IMG/VR virus record: IMGVR_UViG_3300045988_168232
Coordinates: 32,001-96,000 of that record
Length of the DNA stretch: 64,000 nucleotides
Origin: a virus
Reading direction: 5' to 3' (one strand)
Below are positions 10,893-48,425 of this stretch, piece after piece (position 1 is the first letter of the stretch; each line of letters opens with the position of its first letter). A model generated the notes under the pieces. That model was given only the letters and a program-made list of their open reading frames with translations, ran no database searches and was not told the origin of the DNA. Position numbers and translations under genes: made by a program.

Positions 10893-11486
10893 TTATATTT
10901 CTATAGAGTTAAAGATGCTGGAAATCTCATCATCGCGTATTCCTAGATATATCATGGTTGTATCTATGCTTGTGTGTTTAAAAATACGATTTAGATATAC
11001 CAATGATTTTTCAGTTCTTCCACTCTTTTCATATACATATCTACCGAATGTCTTTCTAAAAGTGTGTGTGCTGAAATTGTCTATGTCAAGCTCATACTGA
11101 ATCGCCCACTGTTTCAGTGTTCGATTAATATATTGTATAGATACCGGCTTGTTTTCATTTCCCTTTTTATTGGCTAAAATAAAATCTCGTTTATTCGGTT
11201 TCCCCATTCGTTCATATAAGGTAGTAAAATGGTCAGAGGCATTTTGACCAATTGGTATAACATGGGTTTTACCTGTTTTTTTTGCTATAGCAATGACTTT
11301 TCGTTGATTAAGAATATCACACCATTTTAATTTGCATACATCAGAGAAACGTAATCCGGTACAGAAAGACAGTATGCAATAGCAGGCCCACCAATATTTT
11401 TTTTCATTTATCAGTGCTTGTACAAGTTTCTGATAATCACTGTACGGCAAATAATCTGCCGTTGTTATACTTCCTTTTTGGCTCAT
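10893..11486 (-). CDS. short tyrosine recombinase (phage integrase family, catalytic domain only)
   Basis: GLRFSDV (Arg), HTFRKTF (HxxR) and MIYLG (Tyr) occur in the canonical order. At 197 aa there is no room for an arm-binding domain. Confidence 0.7.
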   Translation of the reverse strand: MSQKGSITTADYLPYSDYQKLVQALINEKKYWWACYCILSFCTGLRFSDVCKLKWCDILNQRKVIAIAKKTGKTHVIPIGQNASDHFTTLYERMGKPNKRDFILANKKGNENKPVSIQYINRTLKQWAIQYELDIDNFSTHTFRKTFGRYVYEKSGRTEKSLVYLNRIFKHTSIDTTMIYLGIRDDEISSIFNSIEI

Positions 11487-11747: not shown

Positions 11748-12209
11748 TTACTTAGTGCCAGTATGTCCAAATCCACCTTCTCCACGTTCGGTCTCGGACA
11801 ATTCTGTAACAACTTCGAACGGTTCATTGCAATAATGGCTAATCACCATTTGGGCAATTTTCGTACCTTTCTTTACAACCAATGGAATAGATTCATAGCT
11901 TTTTATAATTACTCCAACTATACCACGGTAACTTTCATCTATTGTACCTATGAGCACATCAACATCAAATCTTTTCGAAGTATCCATATCATCTACAAGA
12001 TATCCTTCAATTCCTTTTAATGAAAACCCGCTACGAGGACGTATTTGAGCTTCTGTTCCAGGTTCCAGCTCTATACTGATATCAAGTTTTATGAGGTTGC
12101 GCCCAGGGCTAATCACAAAATCACATGGGATATATAGGTCATAACCAGCCGCACCCTTTTCAGCTCTTGTGGGCACTTTTGCCCCCGGTGATAACAATTT
12201 TACTTTCAT
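11748..12209 (-). CDS. dut: dUTP diphosphatase
   Basis: Canonical dUTPase motifs: AAGYDLY, RPRSGFS, GTIDESYRG and C-terminal RGEGGFGHTG. Confidence 0.92.
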   Translation of the reverse strand: MKVKLLSPGAKVPTRAEKGAAGYDLYIPCDFVISPGRNLIKLDISIELEPGTEAQIRPRSGFSLKGIEGYLVDDMDTSKRFDVDVLIGTIDESYRGIVGVIIKSYESIPLVVKKGTKIAQMVISHYCNEPFEVVTELSETERGEGGFGHTGTK

Positions 12210-13034: not shown

Positions 13035-13472
13035 TTATTCTTGTGTGAGTTTTTCTTCAAACACATCCATGATATTTGTCTCTGATATGCTGGTGATTTT
13101 GAAATCAGCCATCGTGCTCTTCATTCCGTCTATAAAGTTTTCAAGTGCATTACGGAAATCAGAAGCTTGTACCAACATATAATTTGCGGTTTGTTTTTCG
13201 ACACCGCTTTTTTCATCAAGCGTAATGAACAAAACCTTAACCTTATACCATCTGTCTCCCTTTTCATCATAGAAGATTTCAGATATGTTTGTTTTCTTAA
13301 CTGCTGAAACCGTAAAATCGCCGGATATATATGGTGTAATCTCCTCAATTATACGTGCCTCAGCTTCAGTAAAAGACAAGGCGTTCACGATATTTGTTTC
13401 AGTAACGCTTTTCAAGGCCCCATCTTCCATTACTTTATTGTAACGGACTTTTGTTTCGATCCAAAATGACAT
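13035..13472 (-). CDS. DUF4494-like protein
   Basis: WIETKVRYNKVMEDGALKSVTE...ALSFTEAEARIIEEITPYISGDFTV matches my recollection of the Bacteroidetes DUF4494 family. Not searched. Confidence 0.5.
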   Translation of the reverse strand: MSFWIETKVRYNKVMEDGALKSVTETNIVNALSFTEAEARIIEEITPYISGDFTVSAVKKTNISEIFYDEKGDRWYKVKVLFITLDEKSGVEKQTANYMLVQASDFRNALENFIDGMKSTMADFKITSISETNIMDVFEEKLTQE

Positions 13473-17913: not shown

Positions 17914-19161
17914 ATGGCAAAGCAACAAGGGTTTAAGTTTATTAAAGGTGTTTGCAGTACTGGTAGCCCGGCGGACATTTTCCTTTATACAGATGTGGAC
18001 TACTGGAGTGTTGATAACTTTCTTTGGGAGTTTGATTACCTGATTAATTATGTGAATCCAAGCAAAATAAGAATACATATCAATTCTGTAGGAGGAAGCG
18101 TTGTAGAAGGTATGAGTGTATTTGCAAAGATTCAAGATTGTGCTATACCGACAGAATGTATCAATGATGCTTTGGCGGCTTCAATGGGGTCAATTATTTG
18201 GGCTGCTGGTGATGAACTGTATATGAAAGACTATGCGTTACTAATGATTCATAATCCATTTTGCGATGTAAATGGGAATAAACAATATGACCAAACAACA
18301 GAAGCTTTTACAATGCAATTAAAAACTATTTACATGAAACGCTTCGGACTTAGCGAAGAGGATGTGGAAAATATTATGAATGGTAAAGATGGCGAAGACG
18401 GTACATTCTTGACAGCGACCCAGGCAATTGAAAAGGGCTTTGTTAAAGCCGACCATGTTATTGAAACCCCTCAAGCCGTAAAAGACAAAATAAATGCTGC
18501 TTTAAAAAGCAGTAAGGATATAGTTCAAATTAAAGCAGTTTATGGATTGATCTCATCTACGTTACCAACAGCTACTATTAACAAACAGAATATCAACTCA
18601 ATTTTAGAAACAATGGAAAAGAACGAAATTACTGTTTTTGCCGCTCTCCTTGGATTGACAGGAGAAAAGGCAACGTCCGAAAATGTTTCTGCAAAGATTA
18701 ATGAACTGAAGGCAAAAGCCGATAATGCTGATGCCCTTCAGAAATCACTTGACGAGACAAAAGGTGAGCTGACAAAAATCAATGCGGAACTTACCGGCGC
18801 AAAAACTTCAATCAAGAATTTGACTGAAGATTTGGATAAGACAAAAACGGCCCTGAAAGTATATCAGGATGCAGAGACAAAAGCCAAAGAAGAAAGAGTT
18901 ACAGCACTCATCGACAAGGCTATTGCAGAGTGTAAAATCAACAAGGAAGAACGTGAAGCCTATACCACTATGGCCCAAAACAATTTTGAACTTGCTGAGA
19001 ATGTGTTGTCAAAAATTCCGGCACGAGACAATTTGGGGCAAATCATTTCACAGGCAAATAAAGGTAATGCAGAAAAAGGAGTTCAAACTGAACAGCAAAG
19101 GGTTTTTGCAAAGGTGGATGAGGTTGTAGGGAAAGACTTCAAATTCCGTACCCTTAGCTAA
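17914..19161 (+). CDS. ClpP-like (S14) prohead protease fused to a coiled-coil scaffold domain
   Basis: N-terminal half carries IHINSVGGSV, AASMGS (Ser) and LMIHNP (His). The C-terminal ~200 aa is heptad-like and rich in Lys, Glu and Ala. Sits immediately upstream of the capsid gene. Confidence 0.72.
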   Translation: MAKQQGFKFIKGVCSTGSPADIFLYTDVDYWSVDNFLWEFDYLINYVNPSKIRIHINSVGGSVVEGMSVFAKIQDCAIPTECINDALAASMGSIIWAAGDELYMKDYALLMIHNPFCDVNGNKQYDQTTEAFTMQLKTIYMKRFGLSEEDVENIMNGKDGEDGTFLTATQAIEKGFVKADHVIETPQAVKDKINAALKSSKDIVQIKAVYGLISSTLPTATINKQNINSILETMEKNEITVFAALLGLTGEKATSENVSAKINELKAKADNADALQKSLDETKGELTKINAELTGAKTSIKNLTEDLDKTKTALKVYQDAETKAKEERVTALIDKAIAECKINKEEREAYTTMAQNNFELAENVLSKIPARDNLGQIISQANKGNAEKGVQTEQQRVFAKVDEVVGKDFKFRTLS

Positions 19162-39944: not shown

Positions 39945-40751
39945 ATGGCAACAGAAATTACAATGGAAACCGACTGGGGAGCGAAAGGCGCTCAGTTGAC
40001 TGGAGCACAGGTTCAAGCGTTCATAAAAGAACAATTGAAGTCTTTGCATGAAAAGGACACTTCACTTCAGAATCAAATTAACAATTCAGAGCCTCGGTTG
40101 CAGGCTGCAACAGATGGCTGTTTTGTCACTTATCATCGTAAAAGTGACAATTGGCCTTTAGCTGTTCCATATTGGAAATGGCCGGATTTGGAAAAAGCAG
40201 GAGAAAAAGCTGATGGAGTACTTGTATTGATTGACGGACAAGCACCTATTATTGTTTCTCCAACTGGTACTCAGCTTAAATGGTCCAAGAATGCTGTAGC
40301 TGTTAATACTAATGTTGGTAGCGATTACAGTAAAGCTTATGTCGATTACACTGGTAAAACTCGGACCGCTGCTATCATAGCAAAAGGTACAGAATTGTTT
40401 GGTGATAATAAAAGTGAATGGAATCAGTATGCGCCGGCGTGGTGTAATGCTTATGACCGTTCCTATGATAAGGGCGATGAAGCACATACTAAAATCGGTA
40501 TTGGCGCAGGACAATGGTGGTTGCCATCTATTGCAGAGTTGATCATCATCTGGAAACACAAGTATGCAATCAATCAATGTCTCTCAGTCATTTCGGGCGC
40601 CAGCCCGCTTGTTGAGAGTTGGCATTGGAGTTCTACTGAGCACTCGGCGACGTACGCTTGGTACTTGAACCTGTACGACGGCAACCTCGGCAGCTGGTAC
40701 ACTAAGGTGTCGCTCAGCGGCTATGTGCGTGCCGTGGCAGCATTTCATTAA
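39945..40751 (+). CDS. DGR target (variable) protein with a C-type-lectin-fold / DUF1566-like C-terminus
   Basis: 268 aa. The C-terminus WWLPSIAEL...WHWSSTEHSATYAWYLNLYDGNLGSWYTKVSLSGYVRAVAAFH contains the VR. Confidence 0.9.
   Translation: MATEITMETDWGAKGAQLTGAQVQAFIKEQLKSLHEKDTSLQNQINNSEPRLQAATDGCFVTYHRKSDNWPLAVPYWKWPDLEKAGEKADGVLVLIDGQAPIIVSPTGTQLKWSKNAVAVNTNVGSDYSKAYVDYTGKTRTAAIIAKGTELFGDNKSEWNQYAPAWCNAYDRSYDKGDEAHTKIGIGAGQWWLPSIAELIIIWKHKYAINQCLSVISGASPLVESWHWSSTEHSATYAWYLNLYDGNLGSWYTKVSLSGYVRAVAAFH
40635..40746 (+). repeat. DGR variable repeat (VR)
   Basis: 112 bp aligned to 41513-41624 at a constant offset of 878. There are 12 mismatches, all at TR adenines, and 9 of 11 TR AAC codons are altered. 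Confidence 0.93.
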
Positions 40752-40759
40752 CCCTTTAT

Positions 40760-40828
40760 CCCTTCAACCCTTTAACTCTTCGGAGCGAAGCGACGTGCGA
40801 GCAACGCGAGCATAAAAGGGTTGAAGGG
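40760..40828 (+). promoter_or_regulatory. 14-bp-stem hairpin 14 nt downstream of the VR
   Basis: cccttcaacccttt (40760-40773) pairs perfectly with aaagggttgaaggg (40815-40828). An inner hairpin cttcg-gag-cgaag lies at 40777-40789. Confidence 0.6.
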
Positions 40829-41012
40829 GTAGTATATATTCAACTTATCACAAGAGACGTCGCCTTTTGGAAGGTTCAGTATGGTTCCAACCTCTTGTAT
40901 AAAATGAGTATATATGGAATGTTAAATCAAGGGTTGGTAATTTGATGATAATCAGTGTTTTGTAGTTAAGAGAATTGATGAAAGCAGTGTTTAAATAAAA
41001 AGAGAAGTTGTT

Positions 41013-41393
41013 ATGGCTTTATCCAACGAATTACCGGTTTATATAGATACATATCATTACATTCAAGCAGTACTCGATACTCACAAAAATTTCCCAAGAG
41101 ATATCAAACATACAGTTGGGCAGGAATGGATTAGAAGAGTAATTACGCTCCCTACTTTTATAGTACGGGCAAATATGTTCAAAAGTGAACGTGAAGCGTA
41201 TCTTACTGATTTCATTTGTGAATTTGAGTTCTGCAAATTGATAGTTCGTTTAGCTGGTGAAAATCATTGGATAAGCCGTAAGCAACAATCTCACCTTATG
41301 TATTTGGAGGCGGCTGTCGGCAAACAAGTGACAGCATGGAAGAACGCATCAAAAGCAAAATATCGGAAACGTATTAATGAAGCCGAAAAATAG
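41013..41393 (+). CDS. avd: DGR accessory variability determinant (Avd, four-helix-bundle family)
   Basis: 126 aa and basic. N-terminal LPVY, FPRDIKHTVGQ and C-terminal GKQVTAWKN resemble Avd / 23S-rRNA-IVS proteins. Sits between VR and TR. Confidence 0.8.
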   Translation: MALSNELPVYIDTYHYIQAVLDTHKNFPRDIKHTVGQEWIRRVITLPTFIVRANMFKSEREAYLTDFICEFEFCKLIVRLAGENHWISRKQQSHLMYLEAAVGKQVTAWKNASKAKYRKRINEAEK

Positions 41394-41512
41394 TAATTGA
41401 TGCAACGCACGGAGTATGGAAGTTTACGGATGACCATAGAGTTTGCGCTTCCGTGAGAAATGGGGGTACTACTGCCATTATGTAGTTAAGGATAAGAAAA
41501 TGTACCCGATAC

Positions 41513-41624
41513 ACTGAGAACTCGGCGACGAACGCTTGGAACTTGAACCTGAACGACGGCAACCTCAACAACTGGAACACTAAGGTGTCGAACAGCAACT
41601 ATGTGCGTGCCGTGGCAGCATTTC
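41513..41624 (+). repeat. DGR template repeat (TR), non-coding RNA template
   Basis: In the VR frame it reads TENSATNAWNLNLNDGNLNNWNTKVSNSNYVRAVAAF, with 11 AAC codons. It ends 71 nt upstream of the RT start codon. Confidence 0.93.
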
Positions 41625-41695
41625 TCCGAAAGGTAATTTTGCGAATAAGTAATTGTAGTACAATATAAAATAAGTATTATCACATTAGTGCTGAT

Positions 41696-43027
41696 ATGGT
41701 GACGTATGAGGATTTGGTAGAGGCCTATTATGATTGTCGTGTACATAAGTCGCGGACAAACAACTGCATTAAGTTTACTCTTGATGTAGAGGGTAATCTA
41801 TATGATATGATGCAAGCCATCAACAATAGAACCTACCAGCCTAAACGCTCCATTTGCTTTGTCGTTAGTCGCCCCAAATACCGTGAGGTGTTCGCTGCTG
41901 ATTTTGCAGACCGAATCGTGCATCATTACATCAGGTTACGGTTAGAACCGATTATTGAGCAAAAATTTAATGATAGGACATTTAATTGTAGAAACGGAAA
42001 AGGCACATTGGCTGGAGTTACACAGTTGAAGCACGATATGATTGAATGTTCTCATAATTATACAACAGACTGTTATGTAGCAACAGTGGACATCAACAGT
42101 TTCTTTATGTCTATCCCTAAAAAACTTGTTGAAAATTTAGTTATTCAACTTGTGAAGGACAAATATGATGGCGATGACAAAGAGGACTTAATTTATTTAT
42201 GCCACGTTGTATTAAGCCATAGCCCGGAGGACAATTGCATCAAACATTCATCAGACGAAATGTGGACGCATCTACCGTCCAGCAAATCATTGTTTACTAA
42301 CGGAAAGGGGCTGGGTATGCCAATTGGTAATCTGCCATCTCAGATGTTTGCTAATTACTTATTAAATGAAGTTGATTGGGCTATTGAAACGGATTGTGGT
42401 ATTAAATATCACGGACGCTATGTGGATGATATTTATCTTGTTGCAGAAACAAAAGAACAAATCCTAAACGCCATTCCAATCATCAGGACACGCTTGGAAT
42501 CATTAGGGCTTAAATTATCTCCAAATAAATTTTATATACAACATTACAGCAAAGGTATAGATTTTACCGGTGCTATAGTAAAACCTGGAAGGGTCTATCC
42601 TTTGAATCGGACTGTCACTTCATTCAGACACAGTATTGACAGACTCAACCAGTGTAAAACCAAATCTCAGATAATAAAAGCATTGTATTCCGTAAATAGC
42701 TATTTAGGGCTAATGAGACAATATAATAGCTATGCTATCAGATATAATGCCCTACATGAAATAGATAAAAGATTGTATAAATGGATATATATTAAAGGCA
42801 ATATGGAAGTAGTTGCCCTGAAAAGAAAATATCATCCTAAAACACGTATAAATTATAGATTATCACATGGGCTTAATCACAAATTGTCATTACCAAGACC
42901 TATAGCTGATTTTGAAGAAAGAGAAGATAGAACAAAATATATCAGACTATTGGCTGAGTACACTTCAGTCGATATTTTCCCAATAAGTGAACTTAAAGAG
43001 AGAGCAAGACTATTATCTAATATATAA
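41696..43027 (+). CDS. DGR reverse transcriptase
   Basis: 443 aa. Carries YVDD (GRYVDDIYLV), the DGR-typical IGNLPSQ motif and FADRIVHH. Confidence 0.93.
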   Translation: MVTYEDLVEAYYDCRVHKSRTNNCIKFTLDVEGNLYDMMQAINNRTYQPKRSICFVVSRPKYREVFAADFADRIVHHYIRLRLEPIIEQKFNDRTFNCRNGKGTLAGVTQLKHDMIECSHNYTTDCYVATVDINSFFMSIPKKLVENLVIQLVKDKYDGDDKEDLIYLCHVVLSHSPEDNCIKHSSDEMWTHLPSSKSLFTNGKGLGMPIGNLPSQMFANYLLNEVDWAIETDCGIKYHGRYVDDIYLVAETKEQILNAIPIIRTRLESLGLKLSPNKFYIQHYSKGIDFTGAIVKPGRVYPLNRTVTSFRHSIDRLNQCKTKSQIIKALYSVNSYLGLMRQYNSYAIRYNALHEIDKRLYKWIYIKGNMEVVALKRKYHPKTRINYRLSHGLNHKLSLPRPIADFEEREDRTKYIRLLAEYTSVDIFPISELKERARLLSNI

Positions 43028-45861: not shown

Positions 45862-46125
45862 ATGAAGATTTATAATTTTGGCAATGATTATGCCTTTCAG
45901 CAAAAACAAAAATTAGAACAGGAAGCACCAAAAATGAATCCAAGTTCTGAAAACAAAGTAAAAGAGGAATCCAATGTTGAAAATCAAAATTCAGATGCCG
46001 GACTCGACAATGTGCCAGCTATCATTAAAGAGGATGACAAACAAATCCAGGTGTCGGAAACCGCAAAAAAGAAAAAAGAAGCGGGGACCAAAGGTTGGAA
46101 AAAGCAAGAGGGTAGTCAAGTTTAA
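45862..46125 (+). CDS. hypothetical Lys/Glu-rich protein
   Basis: 87-aa ORF. Its 3' part overlaps the next ORF around an A-rich tract. Confidence 0.35.
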   Translation: MKIYNFGNDYAFQQKQKLEQEAPKMNPSSENKVKEESNVENQNSDAGLDNVPAIIKEDDKQIQVSETAKKKKEAGTKGWKKQEGSQV

Positions 46126-46435
46126 TGAAACTGCTGTGGGGCATTTTCTTTATGTCTATGCTCCTATTCAGTATCATCTGCTGATGGAATACTGTAAGGC
46201 AATTAAGCAAGTAGAAAGAGGGCAGCGTATCAAATATAATATAATTGAAGCAATAGCTATTAACAGTGATAACGCTGCTTTCAAAACAGCACGTTTCAGA
46301 CGAGCGCTGATAGCTTATCGGAGATTCGGTACTCGTCCGTTAAGAAAAACCGGTTGGTCTTTAAGGGACGCTGTTTATTATGCAAAGAACAGTTATCATA
46401 TTCATGAGGCAGTAAAAAATGAAGGTACATTATGA
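46034..46435 (+). CDS. hypothetical protein (start uncertain)
   Basis: Frame +1 relative to 45862. The last in-frame ATG before the non-overlapping part is at 46034 (MTNKSRCRKPQKRKKKRG...). Confidence 0.35.
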   Translation: MTNKSRCRKPQKRKKKRGPKVGKSKRVVKFNETAVGHFLYVYAPIQYHLLMEYCKAIKQVERGQRIKYNIIEAIAINSDNAAFKTARFRRALIAYRRFGTRPLRKTGWSLRDAVYYAKNSYHIHEAVKNEGTL

Positions 46436-46587
46436 TGCGCTTCCTTCTGTTTGTTGTATGATAATTCCATAAAGAGTATTGCTTCCAAAAATACGATTAA
46501 GGTTGAAGATATCTTTCAAAGGACTGACAATAAGCAAATAAAAAACAAAAAATCCATTGTTCTTGTGGAATGACGATTTTTTTTGCA

Positions 46588-46595
46588 TATATTTG
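46588..46595 (+). promoter_or_regulatory. Bacteroidetes-type -7 element (TAtaTTTG)
   Basis: Matches TAnnTTTG 28 nt upstream of the ATG at 46624. A TTTG lies about 13 nt upstream of it. Confidence 0.4.
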
Positions 46596-46623
46596 AAGTT
46601 GCTTAAAAAATGAACAAAAGAAT

Positions 46624-47871
46624 ATGACAGCAATAGTAGGAGTATTGAATAAACATGCTGTGGCAATAGCGGCAGACAGTGCAGTCACAATGGGGAACAC
46701 TCACAAAGTGGTCAACAGTGCGAATAAGATTTTCACGCTGTCGAAGTATCATCCTGTAGCAGTGATGACATACAGTAGTGCCTCTTTTATGGGTGTACCA
46801 TGGGATATTATCATTAAAGAATACAGAAAGCAGTTAAAAAATAAGTGTTTTGCAAAACTTGAATATTATGTGGGTGATTTTATGAAATATCTGCATAAAG
46901 AACATTTCTTTTGTGATAAAAAAACTCAAGAAACATATTTGCAATGGATGTTGGAATCCTTTTTTGATATTTGTTGTAATGAGATTTGTAATGAAAATCA
47001 TATAGATAAAAGTGCTTTGGATGATACACTGATTGAACAAAAATTAGCGGATTGTATTAAAATATATAAAGCAGCCGATAAATGTCCTGATTTTGATTCG
47101 TATTCATTGGTGGACTTTAAAAAATATGCAGAAACAGCTATACAAAATTTTGCGAATGAAAAGAGTTTTGTAAATGTTGATTTATTGTCAGAGTCTTTCT
47201 TCTACTATTTGTCGGTTAAAATACTTACTTATTCCTATACAGGTTTGGTTTTTGTTGGTTATGGTGAGAAAGAAATATATCCATCACTTATTCCTGTGAA
47301 TATCTCTTCATTAGTTGTTGATGGACATTTAAAATATTTTATTGATCAGACTAATGTTGCTAAAATTTCAGAACATGGTTCTTGGGCTGTGATAAGTCCT
47401 TTTGCACAAGTTGATGTCGTTCAAACCATAATTAGAGGAATCAATCCAAGTTTTCAAGATATAATTTATAATGTTATAGGAAAATCTATTGAATCTTATA
47501 CAGATGCAATTACAGGTATTCTTGATAAGGATCCATCCACAATATCGGTATCAACAGCTATAAAGGGATTGGATAAGCAATCTGTAATCAAAGGTATTGC
47601 AACCCAAATAAACAAAGAGATGTTTAATTTGTATTCAAAGCCATTGATTGATACGGTGGCACATTTAGATAAAGAAGATATGGCAAACATGGCTGAAAGT
47701 TTTATATCTCTTACATCATTGGTTCGTAGAATGCAACCTGGAGAAGAAACAGTAGGAGGTCCAGTGGATGTGGCTGTTATTTCAAAAGGTGATGGTTTTG
47801 TTTGGATTAATAGAAAGCACTATTTTAAGCCTGAGTTGAATACTTCATTTTTTAGTAATTATTTTAAGTAA
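46624..47871 (+). CDS. HslV/proteasome-beta-like N-terminal-nucleophile protein with a long divergent extension
   Basis: M-TAIVGVLNKHAVAIAADSAVTMGNTHKVVNSANKIF parallels my recollection of E. coli HslV, [34 protein letters not shown]. It has Thr1, Asp17 and a Lys at position 34. Confidence 0.6.
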   Translation: MTAIVGVLNKHAVAIAADSAVTMGNTHKVVNSANKIFTLSKYHPVAVMTYSSASFMGVPWDIIIKEYRKQLKNKCFAKLEYYVGDFMKYLHKEHFFCDKKTQETYLQWMLESFFDICCNEICNENHIDKSALDDTLIEQKLADCIKIYKAADKCPDFDSYSLVDFKKYAETAIQNFANEKSFVNVDLLSESFFYYLSVKILTYSYTGLVFVGYGEKEIYPSLIPVNISSLVVDGHLKYFIDQTNVAKISEHGSWAVISPFAQVDVVQTIIRGINPSFQDIIYNVIGKSIESYTDAITGILDKDPSTISVSTAIKGLDKQSVIKGIATQINKEMFNLYSKPLIDTVAHLDKEDMANMAESFISLTSLVRRMQPGEETVGGPVDVAVISKGDGFVWINRKHYFKPELNTSFFSNYFK

Positions 47872-47885
47872 GGAAGGAGCTTGTT

Positions 47886-48077
47886 ATGTATGGAACAATG
47901 ACTTGCGGTTTATGCCCAGATTCAAAATTGGAAGGAACCCTATTGACAAAAGAGCAGATTGAAGAAATTTCGACTCGCATATCCAGGAATGTTTCCGAAA
48001 ATGTATCAAAACAATTGGAAGAAGCTATTTCTGCTTTATCTTCCAAAAAGACAGATAAGGAAACAAAGAAAAAATAA
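47886..48077 (+). CDS. small hypothetical protein
   Basis: 63 aa, starting 15 nt after the upstream stop and followed by a terminator. Confidence 0.35.
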   Translation: MYGTMTCGLCPDSKLEGTLLTKEQIEEISTRISRNVSENVSKQLEEAISALSSKKTDKETKKK

Positions 48078-48085
48078 ATTATTTT

Positions 48086-48127
48086 AAAAAAGTCCGCCTC
48101 GCATTGTTATTTTGGCGGACTTTTTTG
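48086..48127. terminator. bidirectional rho-independent terminator
   Basis: aaaaagtccgcc/ggcggacttttt: a 12-bp stem flanked by A- and T-runs, placed between convergent units. Confidence 0.65.
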
Positions 48128-48176
48128 CGATTGATTTATTAGTAACGTATTAGCCAATATACTTTATATTATTGAT

Positions 48177-48425
48177 TTAGAATTTTTTCATTTTTGAAAA
48201 TGTTGCATTGAAAATAACTTTAGCTTCTGGGCCGCCGTTAATTTTAGTTCCACATGGTACGCTGTGTAAATTTGAAAAGCCAGGATTATACCATTTCTTC
48301 TGAGCAGCATGTATGTCTGTATCTACACCAATGAAAAATTGATGAAATTGGGGTGATTCTCCAACATTATGTGAACATATTAAATGATATTTCCATTCTG
48401 ATGGTTTAATAATAGCACCACACAA
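48177..48425 (-). CDS. hypothetical Cys-containing protein (no ATG start; possibly degenerate)
   Basis: The track start is TTG. The frame is open 12 codons further upstream (IRGIKSKGKCKCRL) without an ATG. Confidence 0.3.
   Translation of the reverse strand: MCGAIIKPSEWKYHLICSHNVGESPQFHQFFIGVDTDIHAAQKKWYNPGFSNLHSVPCGTKINGGPEAKVIFNATFSKMKKF

What the first reader, a model, noticed from the sequence alone, without database searches (positions are those of the whole stretch)
46560..48127. Stand-alone cassette encoding an HslV/proteasome-beta-like protein with a ~240-aa extension
Between the end of the virion module and a convergent leftward block lies a self-contained unit. It has a TAtaTTTG promoter-like element (46588), a 415-aa ORF, a 63-aa ORF and a strong bidirectional terminator (48086-48127). 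After Met removal, the large protein starts TAIVGVLNKHAVAIAADSAVTMGNTHKVVNSANKIF. This tracks the HslV/20S-beta N-terminus (T-x-IV-x-V...H-x-V-x-IA-x-D...T-x-GNT...K), with the catalytic Thr1, Asp17 and a Lys at position 34 (canonical position 33). No HslU-like ATPase is visible in the window, and the C-terminal ~240 aa have no recognisable motif. I am not aware of a characterised phage-borne Ntn-protease of this architecture. It could process virion or host proteins or counter a host defence.
Basis: partly seen in the sequence, partly recalled or inferred. Interest (0 to 1): 0.65.

Follow-up and report, generated by a model that had tools for sequence, protein, structure and literature searches.

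The report
Proteasome-like protease with small partner gene
This phage carries a swappable two-gene cassette encoding a proteasome-like threonine protease, split by two helical insertions, and a small partner protein; the family is large, catalogued since 2021 but untested, and its positions in phages suggest a role in conflicts between phages.

Summary
There is a 415-aa ORF (46624-47871), a 63-aa ORF (47886-48077), a TATATTTG element and a strong hairpin terminator.

The architecture was misread. The protein is not an HslV-like domain plus a 240-aa extension. It is one proteasome-beta fold (AlphaFold pLDDT 95.6; Foldseek hits only 20S beta and Anbu). Two helical insertions, at about residues 95-200 and 273-347, interrupt that fold.

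In 137 diverse homologs, position 2 is Thr or Ser in every sequence, and Asp18 and Lys35 are invariant.

The family is large: 5,025 clusters at 50% identity, across bacteria, archaea and phages. It fits 'PMI-4' of Fuchs, Alva and Lupas (2021), whose function is unknown.

Three findings appear to be new:
- A homologous small ORF follows the gene in 153 of 157 loci, and it is under purifying selection.
- The pair is exchangeable cargo. Sister phages have an empty site, a Panacea-type toxin-antitoxin-like module, or three unknown genes at the same junction.
- Elsewhere the pair sits in typical accessory-gene ('moron') positions: next to a prophage repressor, in the Q-to-lysis region, and at the ends of prophages and satellites.

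The phage already has a standard head protease.

My best reading, which is inferred and not shown, is a self-contained protease module controlled by its partner and used in phage-phage conflict, probably defence.

The parts
46588..46595 (+). TATATTTG, a match to the Bacteroidota -7 promoter consensus TAnnTTTG, 29 nt before the ATG
   Evidence: Read directly. It is not enriched in the window (75 copies against 86 expected). It is conserved in position in 7-8 of 10 cassettes that sit in unrelated upstream contexts. Promoter function is inferred.
46624..47871 (+). Gene for a 415-aa proteasome-beta-like Ntn (Thr1) hydrolase of the 'multiple insertions' type, probably PMI-4
   Evidence: ORF. phrog_5990 matches full-length at E 2.5e-96. 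AF2 pLDDT 95.6, pTM 0.92. The top 50 Foldseek PDB hits are all 20S beta or Anbu, and the alignments span about 400 columns. T2, D18, S19, K35 and Q262 are conserved.
46906..47223 (+). Insertion 1 (about residues 95-200): four helices after core helices H1/H2, at the 'pore loop' site
   Evidence: Helices 99-125, 134-149, 162-179 and 185-197 in the model. This is the most variable segment: majority fraction 0.23 against 0.65-0.74 in the terminal core segments, and length 99-131 aa. The site matches the PMI-3/PMI-4 description in PMC8665760.
47440..47664 (+). Insertion 2 (about residues 273-347): three helices between core helices H3 and H4
   Evidence: Helices 275-300, 304-314 and 318-346 in the model. 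Majority fraction 0.27. The site matches the PMI-2 to PMI-6 description.
47665..47868 (+). C-terminal core (residues 348-415): helix H4, the last two strands and a short terminal helix, including the ETVGGPVDVAVISKGDGF motif
   Evidence: Aligned with Thermoplasma beta residues 163-187 (mature numbering) by HMMER. This is the best-conserved segment, with majority fraction 0.74.
47886..48077 (+). Gene for the 63-aa partner protein, starting 14 nt after the protease stop codon
   Evidence: A same-strand 40-90-aa ORF follows in 153 of 157 loci, against 49 and 31 in the two controls. A profile seeded with an archaeal partner recruits 67 of 122 unique partners, including this one, and none of 244 shuffled or reversed controls. 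dN/dS is 0.13. It matches no Pfam family.
48085..48127 (.). Hairpin with a 14-bp stem and 15-nt loop, preceded by an A-run and followed by a T-run: a likely bidirectional terminator at the convergent junction
   Evidence: Folds at -20.3 kcal/mol, z = -5.6, and 0 of 200 shuffles fold as well.
46436..48176 (.). Cargo slot between the last rightward virion-side gene (45974-46435) and the first leftward gene (48177-48425)
   Evidence: In sister phages this interval is empty (36 bp; L174-L187), holds three unknown genes (L167), or holds a SocA/Panacea-domain two-gene module (L168). Seven contigs carry the protease pair.

Best explanation
The cassette encodes a complete, probably active, proteasome-like N-terminal-threonine hydrolase.

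Shown:
- The beta-sandwich core is interrupted by two fast-evolving helical insertions. This matches the architecture catalogued as PMI-4.
- An obligatory, co-inherited small partner protein is encoded immediately downstream.
- The pair is a mobile, self-transcribed accessory unit. It moves between temperate phages, satellites and cellular chromosomes, and occupies exchangeable cargo slots.

Inferred:
- The enzyme works without an unfoldase ATPase and probably not as a stacked ring. It would act as a substrate-specific protease, and a connectase-like transpeptidase is also possible.
- The helical insertions would recognise the target or trigger.
- The small partner would control activity, as an inhibitor (antitoxin-like) or as an adaptor.
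- The most likely biological role is in conflict between mobile elements. A prophage or satellite would use it to protect its host against other phages, by proteolysis of a phage protein or an essential host protein once the control is released.
For: Fold and active site:
- AF2 pLDDT 95.6.
- Foldseek hits only 20S beta and Anbu, at probability 1.0. The best viral hit is a phage 'proteasome beta' with target TM 0.71.
- T2/S2, D18 and K35 are conserved in 137 of 137 sequences and align with T1, E17 and K33 of the 20S beta subunit.

Family size and spread:
- 5,025 clusters at 50% identity.
- Many bacterial phyla, plus ANME-1, Methanosarcinales and Woesearchaeota; 238 viral contigs.
- This fits PMI-4.

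Partner.

No recurrent third gene: 132 Pfam families among 150 neighbours, none found more than 3 times.

Cargo behaviour: the same slot is empty, filled by a Panacea toxin-antitoxin-like module, or filled by unknown genes in sister phages.

Accessory-gene ('moron') positions:
- Downstream of a RacR-like repressor, where Rac carries sieB.
- Between Q and the lysis genes, on the opposite strand.
- Between the adenine methylase and the holin in a Providencia lambdoid phage.
- After the lysin at a streptococcal prophage end.
- At the end of streptococcal satellites.
- At a convergent junction in a Mu-like phage.

Other support:
- The gene is rare and patchy in E. coli: 22 of 5,426 genomes.
- The insertions are far more variable than the core.
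- The promoter-like motif travels with the cassette.
Against: - No experiment exists, and no paper on the function of this family was found.
- The protein matches no PADLOC model.
- Only a minority of immediate neighbours in cellular genomes are defence genes. AriA/AAA_21, MADS, methylases and PDC-S14 each occur 2-4 times in 150; many neighbours are housekeeping genes.
- The family is old and reaches archaea, which also fits a cellular function.
- The Gly47 oxyanion-hole residue is not a glycine at the aligned position (I/V/T/L).
- Sequence-profile support for the proteasome relationship is below curated thresholds. Pfam gives 17.6 bits against 22.4, and the profile against PDB gives E 0.008.
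- Binding of the partner could not be modelled.
Confidence: 0.5

Rival explanations
1. Counter-defence: the phage uses the protease during its own infection to destroy host immune proteins or other host factors. The small protein would act as an adaptor.
For: - The cassette is carried by phage genomes.
- In the window it lies at the end of the rightward virion block, on the same strand.
- Fast-evolving insertions would also suit recognition of variable host immune proteins.
- It matches no known defence family.
Against: - Many copies lie in cellular genomes of bacteria and archaea with housekeeping neighbours.
- In E. coli prophages it follows the repressor on the lysogenic strand, or lies antisense to the late genes.
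- It sits at the end of satellites, which do not run their own lytic programme.
- All named phage carriers that could be judged are temperate or lambdoid.
Confidence: 0.15
2. A cellular or selfish two-gene module unrelated to phage defence. One version is an addiction (toxin-antitoxin-like) pair. Another is a specific protein-processing or protein-ligating enzyme (connectase-like) whose substrate or cofactor is the small protein. Phages would carry it only as a passenger.
For: - The family is ancient and broadly distributed, including archaea.
- Neighbours are heterogeneous and mostly housekeeping.
- Partners outside Bacteroidota share a conserved N-terminal motif (y-S-x-x-E-F-x-k-x-y-F-P-k) that could be a recognition or cleavage site.
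- Connectase shows that monomeric proteasome homologs can be sequence-specific ligases (PMC8665760).
Against: - The distribution is patchy and of low frequency: 22 of 5,426 E. coli genomes, all in prophages in the two examined.
- The cassette occupies exchangeable cargo slots shared with a Panacea toxin-antitoxin-like module.
- It recurs at phage accessory-gene ('moron') positions.
- A pure addiction module and a defence module are not mutually exclusive.
Confidence: 0.25
3. One reading: an HslV-like N-terminal protease domain carrying a novel ~240-aa C-terminal domain, acting on virion proteins.
For: - The N-terminal 45 residues are the only part that sequence profiles recognise (Pfam, NCBIfam HslV, phrog_1040).
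Against: - The model and Foldseek alignments span the whole chain, and the last strands of the fold are at residues 381-396.
- HslV equivalog scores are far below threshold: 15.6 bits against 137.
- A ClpP/S49-type head maturation protease is already encoded at 17914-19161.
- Closest relatives with 95-98% identical virion genes lack the cassette.
Confidence: 0.03
4. A catalytically dead proteasome-fold protein used as a scaffold or binding protein.
For: - Gly47 is not conserved as glycine.
- Proteasome alpha subunits and several homologs are inactive. An automatic NCBI name even says 'alpha type-2'.
Against: - A Thr or Ser directly after Met1 in 137 of 137 sequences, and invariant Asp18, Ser19 and Lys35. 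These are hard to explain without catalysis.
- Alpha subunits carry an N-terminal extension instead of a free Thr1.
Confidence: 0.07

Closest known systems
PMI-4 ('proteasome homolog with multiple insertions', Fuchs, Alva and Lupas 2021, PMC8665760)
   Same: - No propeptide.
- A long insertion after H1/H2 and another between H3 and H4.
- The most populous of the PMI groups.
- Found in Proteobacteria, Firmicutes, Bacteroidetes, other phyla, Euryarchaeota and phages.
- No AAA+ partner and no known function.
   Different: - Identity with PMI-4 could not be checked against the authors' reference (HDY66466.1) or their HMM. PMI-3 has the same insertion sites but is rare.
- The paper reports no informative gene context. 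Here a conserved small partner gene and cargo-slot behaviour are seen.
20S proteasome beta subunit and Anbu
   Same: - The core fold.
- The Thr1 / Asp(Glu)17 / Lys33 equivalents.
- The C-terminal GG-x-x-DV motif.
   Different: - About 180 extra residues in two helical insertions. PMC8665760 judges insertions at these sites hard to reconcile with ring and double-ring assembly.
- No alpha subunits.
- The Gly47 position is not glycine.
- Scores below the Pfam threshold.
HslV (ClpQ)
   Same: - Bacterial Thr1 protease of the same superfamily.
- Similar N-terminal sequence.
   Different: - No HslU partner.
- More than twice the length.
- NCBIfam HslV scores of 13-16 bits against cut-offs of 137-158.
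Connectase (the Methanosarcina MtrA ligase)
   Same: - A proteasome homolog with helical insertions.
- It acts without an ATPase, as a monomer, on a specific sequence.
   Different: - Its insertion is at a different site (S3/S4).
- It lacks H1/H2.
- It is restricted to methanogens.
- Ligase activity here is only a possibility.
PPH and AAH (phage-associated proteasome homologs, same paper)
   Same: - Proteasome-fold proteins carried by tailed phages.
   Different: - They are compact (about 140-200 aa), lack insertions, and belong to the HslV/BPH-like group I.
Prophage accessory defence genes (sieB and rexAB by position) and protease-based abortive infection such as Lit (functional analogy, from general knowledge)
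   Same: - Position next to the repressor or in the Q-to-lysis region of lambdoid prophages.
- A small self-contained unit.
- Patchy distribution.
   Different: - No sequence or fold relationship.
- A defence phenotype has not been shown for this cassette.

Membership tests
Proteasome-like Ntn hydrolases (20S beta / HslV / Anbu superfamily) | alpha-beta-beta-alpha sandwich fold of the proteasome beta subunit | tested here: met
   AF2 pLDDT 95.6, pTM 0.92. The top 50 Foldseek PDB hits are all 20S beta or Anbu, at probability 1.0, E down to 5.5e-5 and target TM 0.41-0.60.
Proteasome-like Ntn hydrolases (20S beta / HslV / Anbu superfamily) | N-terminal Thr (or Ser) nucleophile exposed at the mature N-terminus | tested here: met
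   Position 2 is Thr in 134 and Ser in 3 of 137 homologs, directly after Met1. Removal of Met is assumed and not tested.
Proteasome-like Ntn hydrolases (20S beta / HslV / Anbu superfamily) | Equivalents of Asp/Glu17 and Lys33 | tested here: met
   D18 and K35 are invariant in 137 sequences. HMMER aligns them with E17 and K33 of Thermoplasma beta.
Proteasome-like Ntn hydrolases (20S beta / HslV / Anbu superfamily) | Gly47 oxyanion hole | tested here: inconclusive
   Extending the alignment puts residue 49 at this position, and it is I/V/T/L. The hole uses a backbone amide, so the side chain may not matter. Model coordinates could not be inspected.
Proteasome-like Ntn hydrolases (20S beta / HslV / Anbu superfamily) | Pfam PF00227 gathering score | tested here: not met
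   17.6 bits against a cut-off of 22.4, covering residues 2-42 only.
Proteasome-like Ntn hydrolases (20S beta / HslV / Anbu superfamily) | Thr1-dependent hydrolytic activity | not testable with these tools
   Needs biochemistry.
HslV | NCBIfam equivalog score, a compact ~175-aa subunit, and an hslU neighbour | tested here: not met
   15.6 and 13.1 bits against cut-offs of 137 and 157.75. The protein is 415 aa. No AAA+ family recurs among 150 neighbours.
PMI-4 (PMC8665760) | Long insertion after H1/H2 and insertion between H3 and H4, with no propeptide | tested here: met
   Secondary-structure map of the model, compared with the paper's description.
PMI-4 (PMC8665760) | Broad distribution: major bacterial phyla, Euryarchaeota and phages; the largest PMI group | tested here: met
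   compared with Table 1 of the paper.
PMI-4 (PMC8665760) | Sequence match to the authors' PMI-4 reference (HDY66466.1) or their HMM | not testable with these tools
Known anti-phage defence systems | Match to a curated defence-protein model | tested here: not met
   No PADLOC 2.0 hit for either protein.
Known anti-phage defence systems | Location in variable cargo slots of mobile elements, or next to defence genes | tested here: inconclusive
   Cargo slots and accessory-gene ('moron') positions are clearly met. Defence genes among cellular neighbours are few, and no background rate was computed.
Known anti-phage defence systems | Protection against phage infection | not testable with these tools
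   Needs plaque assays.
Toxin-antitoxin-like two-gene modules | A tightly linked, co-inherited small partner gene | tested here: met
   153 of 157 loci. Partners are homologous across bacteria and archaea, with dN/dS 0.13.
Toxin-antitoxin-like two-gene modules | Toxicity of one component, neutralised by the other | not testable with these tools
   Needs expression experiments.

The most novel reading that the evidence does not exclude
The protease and its small partner form a new, very widespread class of two-gene conflict system in bacteria and archaea. A non-ring proteasome-fold threonine protease would be the effector, with no unfoldase ATPase. Its hypervariable helical insertions would sense or select the target. 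The small co-evolving partner would hold it in check until infection. This would be the first immune or abortive-infection system built on the proteasome fold in prokaryotes.
Probability: 0.35. Interest if true: 0.8.

Novelty: new member of a known kind. Interest (0 to 1): 0.55.

Why it matters
- Proteasome homologs outside HslV, the 20S particle, Anbu, BPH and connectase have no known function. This family is one of the largest, with thousands of clusters.
- The original survey found no informative gene context. The obligatory small partner and the cargo-slot behaviour give the first concrete, testable hypothesis for it.
- If the module proves to be a defence or addiction system, it adds a new enzymatic principle to prokaryotic immunity: a regulated Thr1 protease acting without an ATPase.
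- It would also show what helical insertions in the proteasome fold are for.
- Native E. coli prophage versions with their own partner ORF exist, so the test is straightforward.

Tried and rejected
- Major capsid protein: considered because the Porphyromonas phage homolog sits between the portal and neck genes. Rejected because that phage has its own capsid and prohead protease genes elsewhere, and the fold is proteasome-like.
- Prohead protease: rejected because one is already present at 17914-19161 and sister phages lack the cassette.
- NrdD/NrdG as host DNA, with the cassette at a prophage end: rejected. The same block is conserved in 110-115-kb viral contigs and continues into phage-like genes.
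- Profile search against PDB sequences: stays weak. 20S beta scores E 0.008. Cullin-3 helical repeats score E 0.005 on insertion 1, which I take as a helical-composition artefact.
- Literature searches for a proteasome-like defence system, for papers citing the 2021 survey, and for accession numbers: nothing on function.
- Pfam, NCBIfam and PADLOC for both proteins: no family above threshold.
- Search for the small protein on its own in viral contigs: it found only the contigs that also carry the protease, so the reverse co-occurrence test covers close relatives only.
- Megablast of 20 kb of the window against GenBank phages: no match.
Full report
**What is in the sequence**

The ORFs are as described. 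A 415-aa ORF lies at 46624-47871 (+). A 63-aa ORF at 47886-48077 (+) starts 14 nt after its stop codon. TATATTTG lies at 46588-46595.

Downstream, a 14-bp stem (48085-48098 / 48114-48127) with a 15-nt loop folds at -20.3 kcal/mol, with z = -5.6 against shuffles. It is flanked by an A-run and a T-run. The consensus terminator scanner misses it only because of the loop length.

The motif TAnnTTTG is not enriched in the window: 75 copies against 86 expected. Taken alone it proves nothing. However, it recurs 25-35 nt before the ATG in 7-8 of 10 cassettes whose upstream DNA is otherwise unalignable. The element therefore appears to travel with the gene.

**What the large protein is**

Sequence profiles recognise only the first ~45 residues, and only below threshold:
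- Pfam Proteasome: 17.6 bits against a cut-off of 22.4.
- NCBIfam HslV: 15.6 bits against 137.
- phrog_1040.

phmmer against PDB sequences gave two weak, collinear matches to the Thermoplasma 20S beta subunit:
- Residues 2-46 match the N-terminus, with T2 on T1, D18 on E17 and K35 on K33.
- Residues 371-395 (EETVGGPVDVAVISKGDGFVWI) match the D166/S169/G170 segment and the last strands.

An AlphaFold2 model built on 137 diverse homologs is very confident (pLDDT 95.6, pTM 0.92). Foldseek against the PDB returns only 20S beta subunits and Anbu among the top 50. Those alignments span about 400 columns of the query (probability 1.0, E down to 5.5e-5, target-normalised TM 0.41-0.60). The best viral match is a 219-aa phage 'proteasome beta' protein with TM 0.71.

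The secondary-structure map shows one proteasome fold interrupted twice:
- Four helices at about residues 95-200, after H1/H2.
- Three helices at about residues 273-347, between H3 and H4.

So the '240-aa C-terminal extension' does not exist. The C-terminus is in fact the best-conserved part of the core.

**Active site**

In 137 homologs of 32-64% identity:
- Position 2 is Thr in 134 and Ser in 3.
- D18, S19, K35, G212, G214, P220, Q262, V377, D382, G391 and K398 are invariant.
- The residue aligned with Gly47 is I/V/T/L, so that feature is open.
- The insertions are much more variable than the core, and vary in length. Majority fractions are 0.23 and 0.27 for the insertions, against 0.65, 0.45 and 0.74 for the three core segments.

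**The family and what is already known**

The family is very large:
- 5,025 clusters at 50% identity with E <= 0.001, nearly all 400-440 aa and starting at residue 1.
- More than 6,500 hits in the 90% database.

It occurs in Bacteroidota, Proteobacteria, Firmicutes, Planctomycetota, Nitrospirota, Acidobacteriota, Cyanobacteria and Saccharibacteria. It also occurs in archaea: ANME-1, Methanosarcinales, Woesearchaeota and Hydrothermarchaeota. It is found on 238 viral contigs.

Fuchs, Alva and Lupas (2021, PMC8665760) described 22 new proteasome homologs. Among them are the PMI groups ('multiple insertions'). PMI-3 and PMI-4 have a long insertion after H1/H2 and another between H3 and H4. PMI-4 is the populous one, present in all major bacterial phyla, Euryarchaeota and phages.

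The authors argue that such insertions should hinder ring and double-ring assembly. They found no AAA+ partner and no informative gene context. The present family fits PMI-4 on every feature I could test. The reference accession and the authors' HMMs were out of reach.

An automatic NCBI annotation of a 433-aa member of the same 90% cluster already reads 'Proteasome subunit alpha type-2' (DAJ40534.1). I found no functional study, no Pfam or NCBIfam family, and no PADLOC model.

**The small partner**

- A same-strand ORF of 40-90 aa starts within -40 to +70 nt of the stop codon in 153 of 157 loci with enough downstream sequence. The controls gave 49 (reverse complement) and 31 (shuffled).
- The partners are very divergent. 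Even so, an iterated profile seeded with the ANME-1 archaeal partner recruits 67 of 122 unique sequences, including the window's. It recruits none of 244 shuffled or reversed controls.
- Two elements recur: an N-terminal y-S-x-x-E-F-x-k-x-y-F-P-k motif, degenerate in the Prevotella clade, and a C-terminal amphipathic helix (d-P-x-x-f-G-x-x-L-A-x-e-x-L-x-x-I-r-x-q-L).
- Between the window and close relatives, the small ORF has dN/dS 0.13, like the protease gene.
- It matches no Pfam family.
- RefSeq does not annotate it in E. coli, and a metagenome gene caller missed it in a Mu-like phage. This may be why it went unnoticed.
- No third gene recurs: 150 immediate neighbours in 80 species fall into 132 Pfam families, none seen more than three times.

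**Context in this phage**

The window belongs to a ~110-kb myovirus-like phage. It encodes:
- a portal;
- a ClpP/S49-type head maturation protease at 17914-19161;
- a sheath, a 2,078-aa tape measure and a baseplate hub;
- a diversity-generating retroelement (DGR);
- NrdD/NrdG;
- an SbcC-like nuclease.

A conventional prohead protease is thus already present.

Using the neighbouring virion-side gene as a probe, I found 22 related viral contigs that share the backbone on both sides:
- Seven carry the protease pair.
- The closest relative (98% identity in the probe gene) carries three unrelated unknown genes instead.
- Another (95%) carries a SocA/Panacea antitoxin-domain protein (Pfam E 6e-22) with a 150-aa partner.
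- A group at 83% has an empty site, with the two convergent stop codons 36 bp apart.

The cassette is therefore exchangeable cargo at a convergent junction, not part of the phage's core programme.

**Context elsewhere**

- Providencia lambdoid phage: between the adenine methylase that follows the Q antiterminator and the holin, with a 58-aa ORF after it.
- E. coli ETEC prophages: in the same Q-to-lysis region, on the opposite strand to the late genes.
- Another E. coli prophage: directly downstream of the RacR-like repressor on the same strand, before ydaE-recE-recT. In Rac of K-12 this interval holds sieB.
- Streptococcus prophage Javan85: after the lysin, at the prophage end.
- Streptococcal satellites: the last two genes.
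- A temperate Porphyromonas phage: among methyltransferase accessory genes in the late region.
- A Mu-like Prevotella phage: at a convergent junction.
- E. coli overall: 22 of 5,426 complete genomes carry it.
- Plasmids: ten records, mostly large rhizobial replicons.
- Cellular genomes: a few neighbours are defence genes (AriA/AAA_21, MADS, methylases, PDC-S14), but most are ordinary genes.

**Interpretation**

Shown:
- The fold and the conserved catalytic residues.
- The two insertions and their variability.
- The obligatory, homologous partner under purifying selection.
- The absence of any other recurrent partner.
- The cargo-slot and accessory-gene behaviour.

Inferred:
- The enzyme is an ATPase-independent, substrate-specific Thr1 protease or transpeptidase, and not a ring-shaped degradation chamber.
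- The insertions recognise a target or trigger.
- The partner regulates the enzyme.
- The module serves its mobile element in competition with other phages, most plausibly as a defence expressed from the prophage or satellite.

I put about 0.5 on this package as a whole. The identity of the protein alone I put at about 0.85-0.9.

Alternatives, in order of my confidence:
- A cellular or selfish processing/addiction module, with phages as carriers (0.25).
- A counter-defence protease (0.15).
- An inactive scaffold (0.07).

**Novelty and score**

The protein is a new member of a family that was catalogued by computation, including in phages, so the architecture itself is not new. What appears new is the conserved partner gene and the evidence that the pair is mobile accessory cargo. 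Together these turn an orphan family into a testable candidate conflict system. Interest: 0.55.

Noticed in passing
window 39945-43027: A complete diversity-generating retroelement (DGR).
- Target gene at 39945-40751 (Lcl_C/C-type-lectin-like C-terminus), with the variable repeat at 40635-40746.
- bAvd accessory gene at 41013-41393.
- Template repeat at 41513-41624.
- Reverse transcriptase at 41696-43027.
All 12 mismatches between the repeats fall on adenines of the template.
   Followed up: yes
L168 10425-11422 and L167 10346-11870 (sister phages, same slot as window 46436-48176): Alternative cargo at the same junction.
- L168 holds a SocA/Panacea antitoxin-domain protein with a 150-aa partner.
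- L167 holds three unknown genes of 225, 132 and 143 aa, the last with a weak hit to the PADLOC candidate PDC-M64C (E 1.7e-4).
   Followed up: partly
window 10893-11486 (-): A 197-aa tyrosine recombinase consisting of the catalytic domain only (Pfam Phage_integrase, E 4e-24). It could be an integrase or an invertase, and the phage's lifestyle remains unsettled.
   Followed up: partly
L189 9264-9413; L190 7786-9189; L196 11300-11476: Annotation gaps and likely misplaced starts.
- The small partner ORF is not annotated in E. coli RefSeq records and was not called in a Mu-like Prevotella phage contig.
- The annotated start of WP_231531568.1 is probably 33 codons too far upstream; the conserved MTAE... 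start is internal.
- The 433-aa and 428-aa cluster members likewise probably start upstream of the true Met-Thr.
   Followed up: partly
window 46873-47106 (residues 84-161, insertion 1): The family profile gives weak hits (E 0.005-0.02) to the N-terminal helical repeats of Cullin-3. This is probably a helical-composition effect.
   Followed up: no
window 17914-19161 (+): A second ORF of exactly 415 aa. It is the ClpP/S49-type head maturation protease (phrog_2976, E 5e-42) and matches different families from the finding; the equal length looks coincidental.
   Followed up: yes
window 13035-13472 (-) and 11748-12209 (-): A DUF4494 protein (Pfam E 3.6e-56). There is also an ORF that looks like a dUTPase by eye; that one was not tested.
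   Followed up: no
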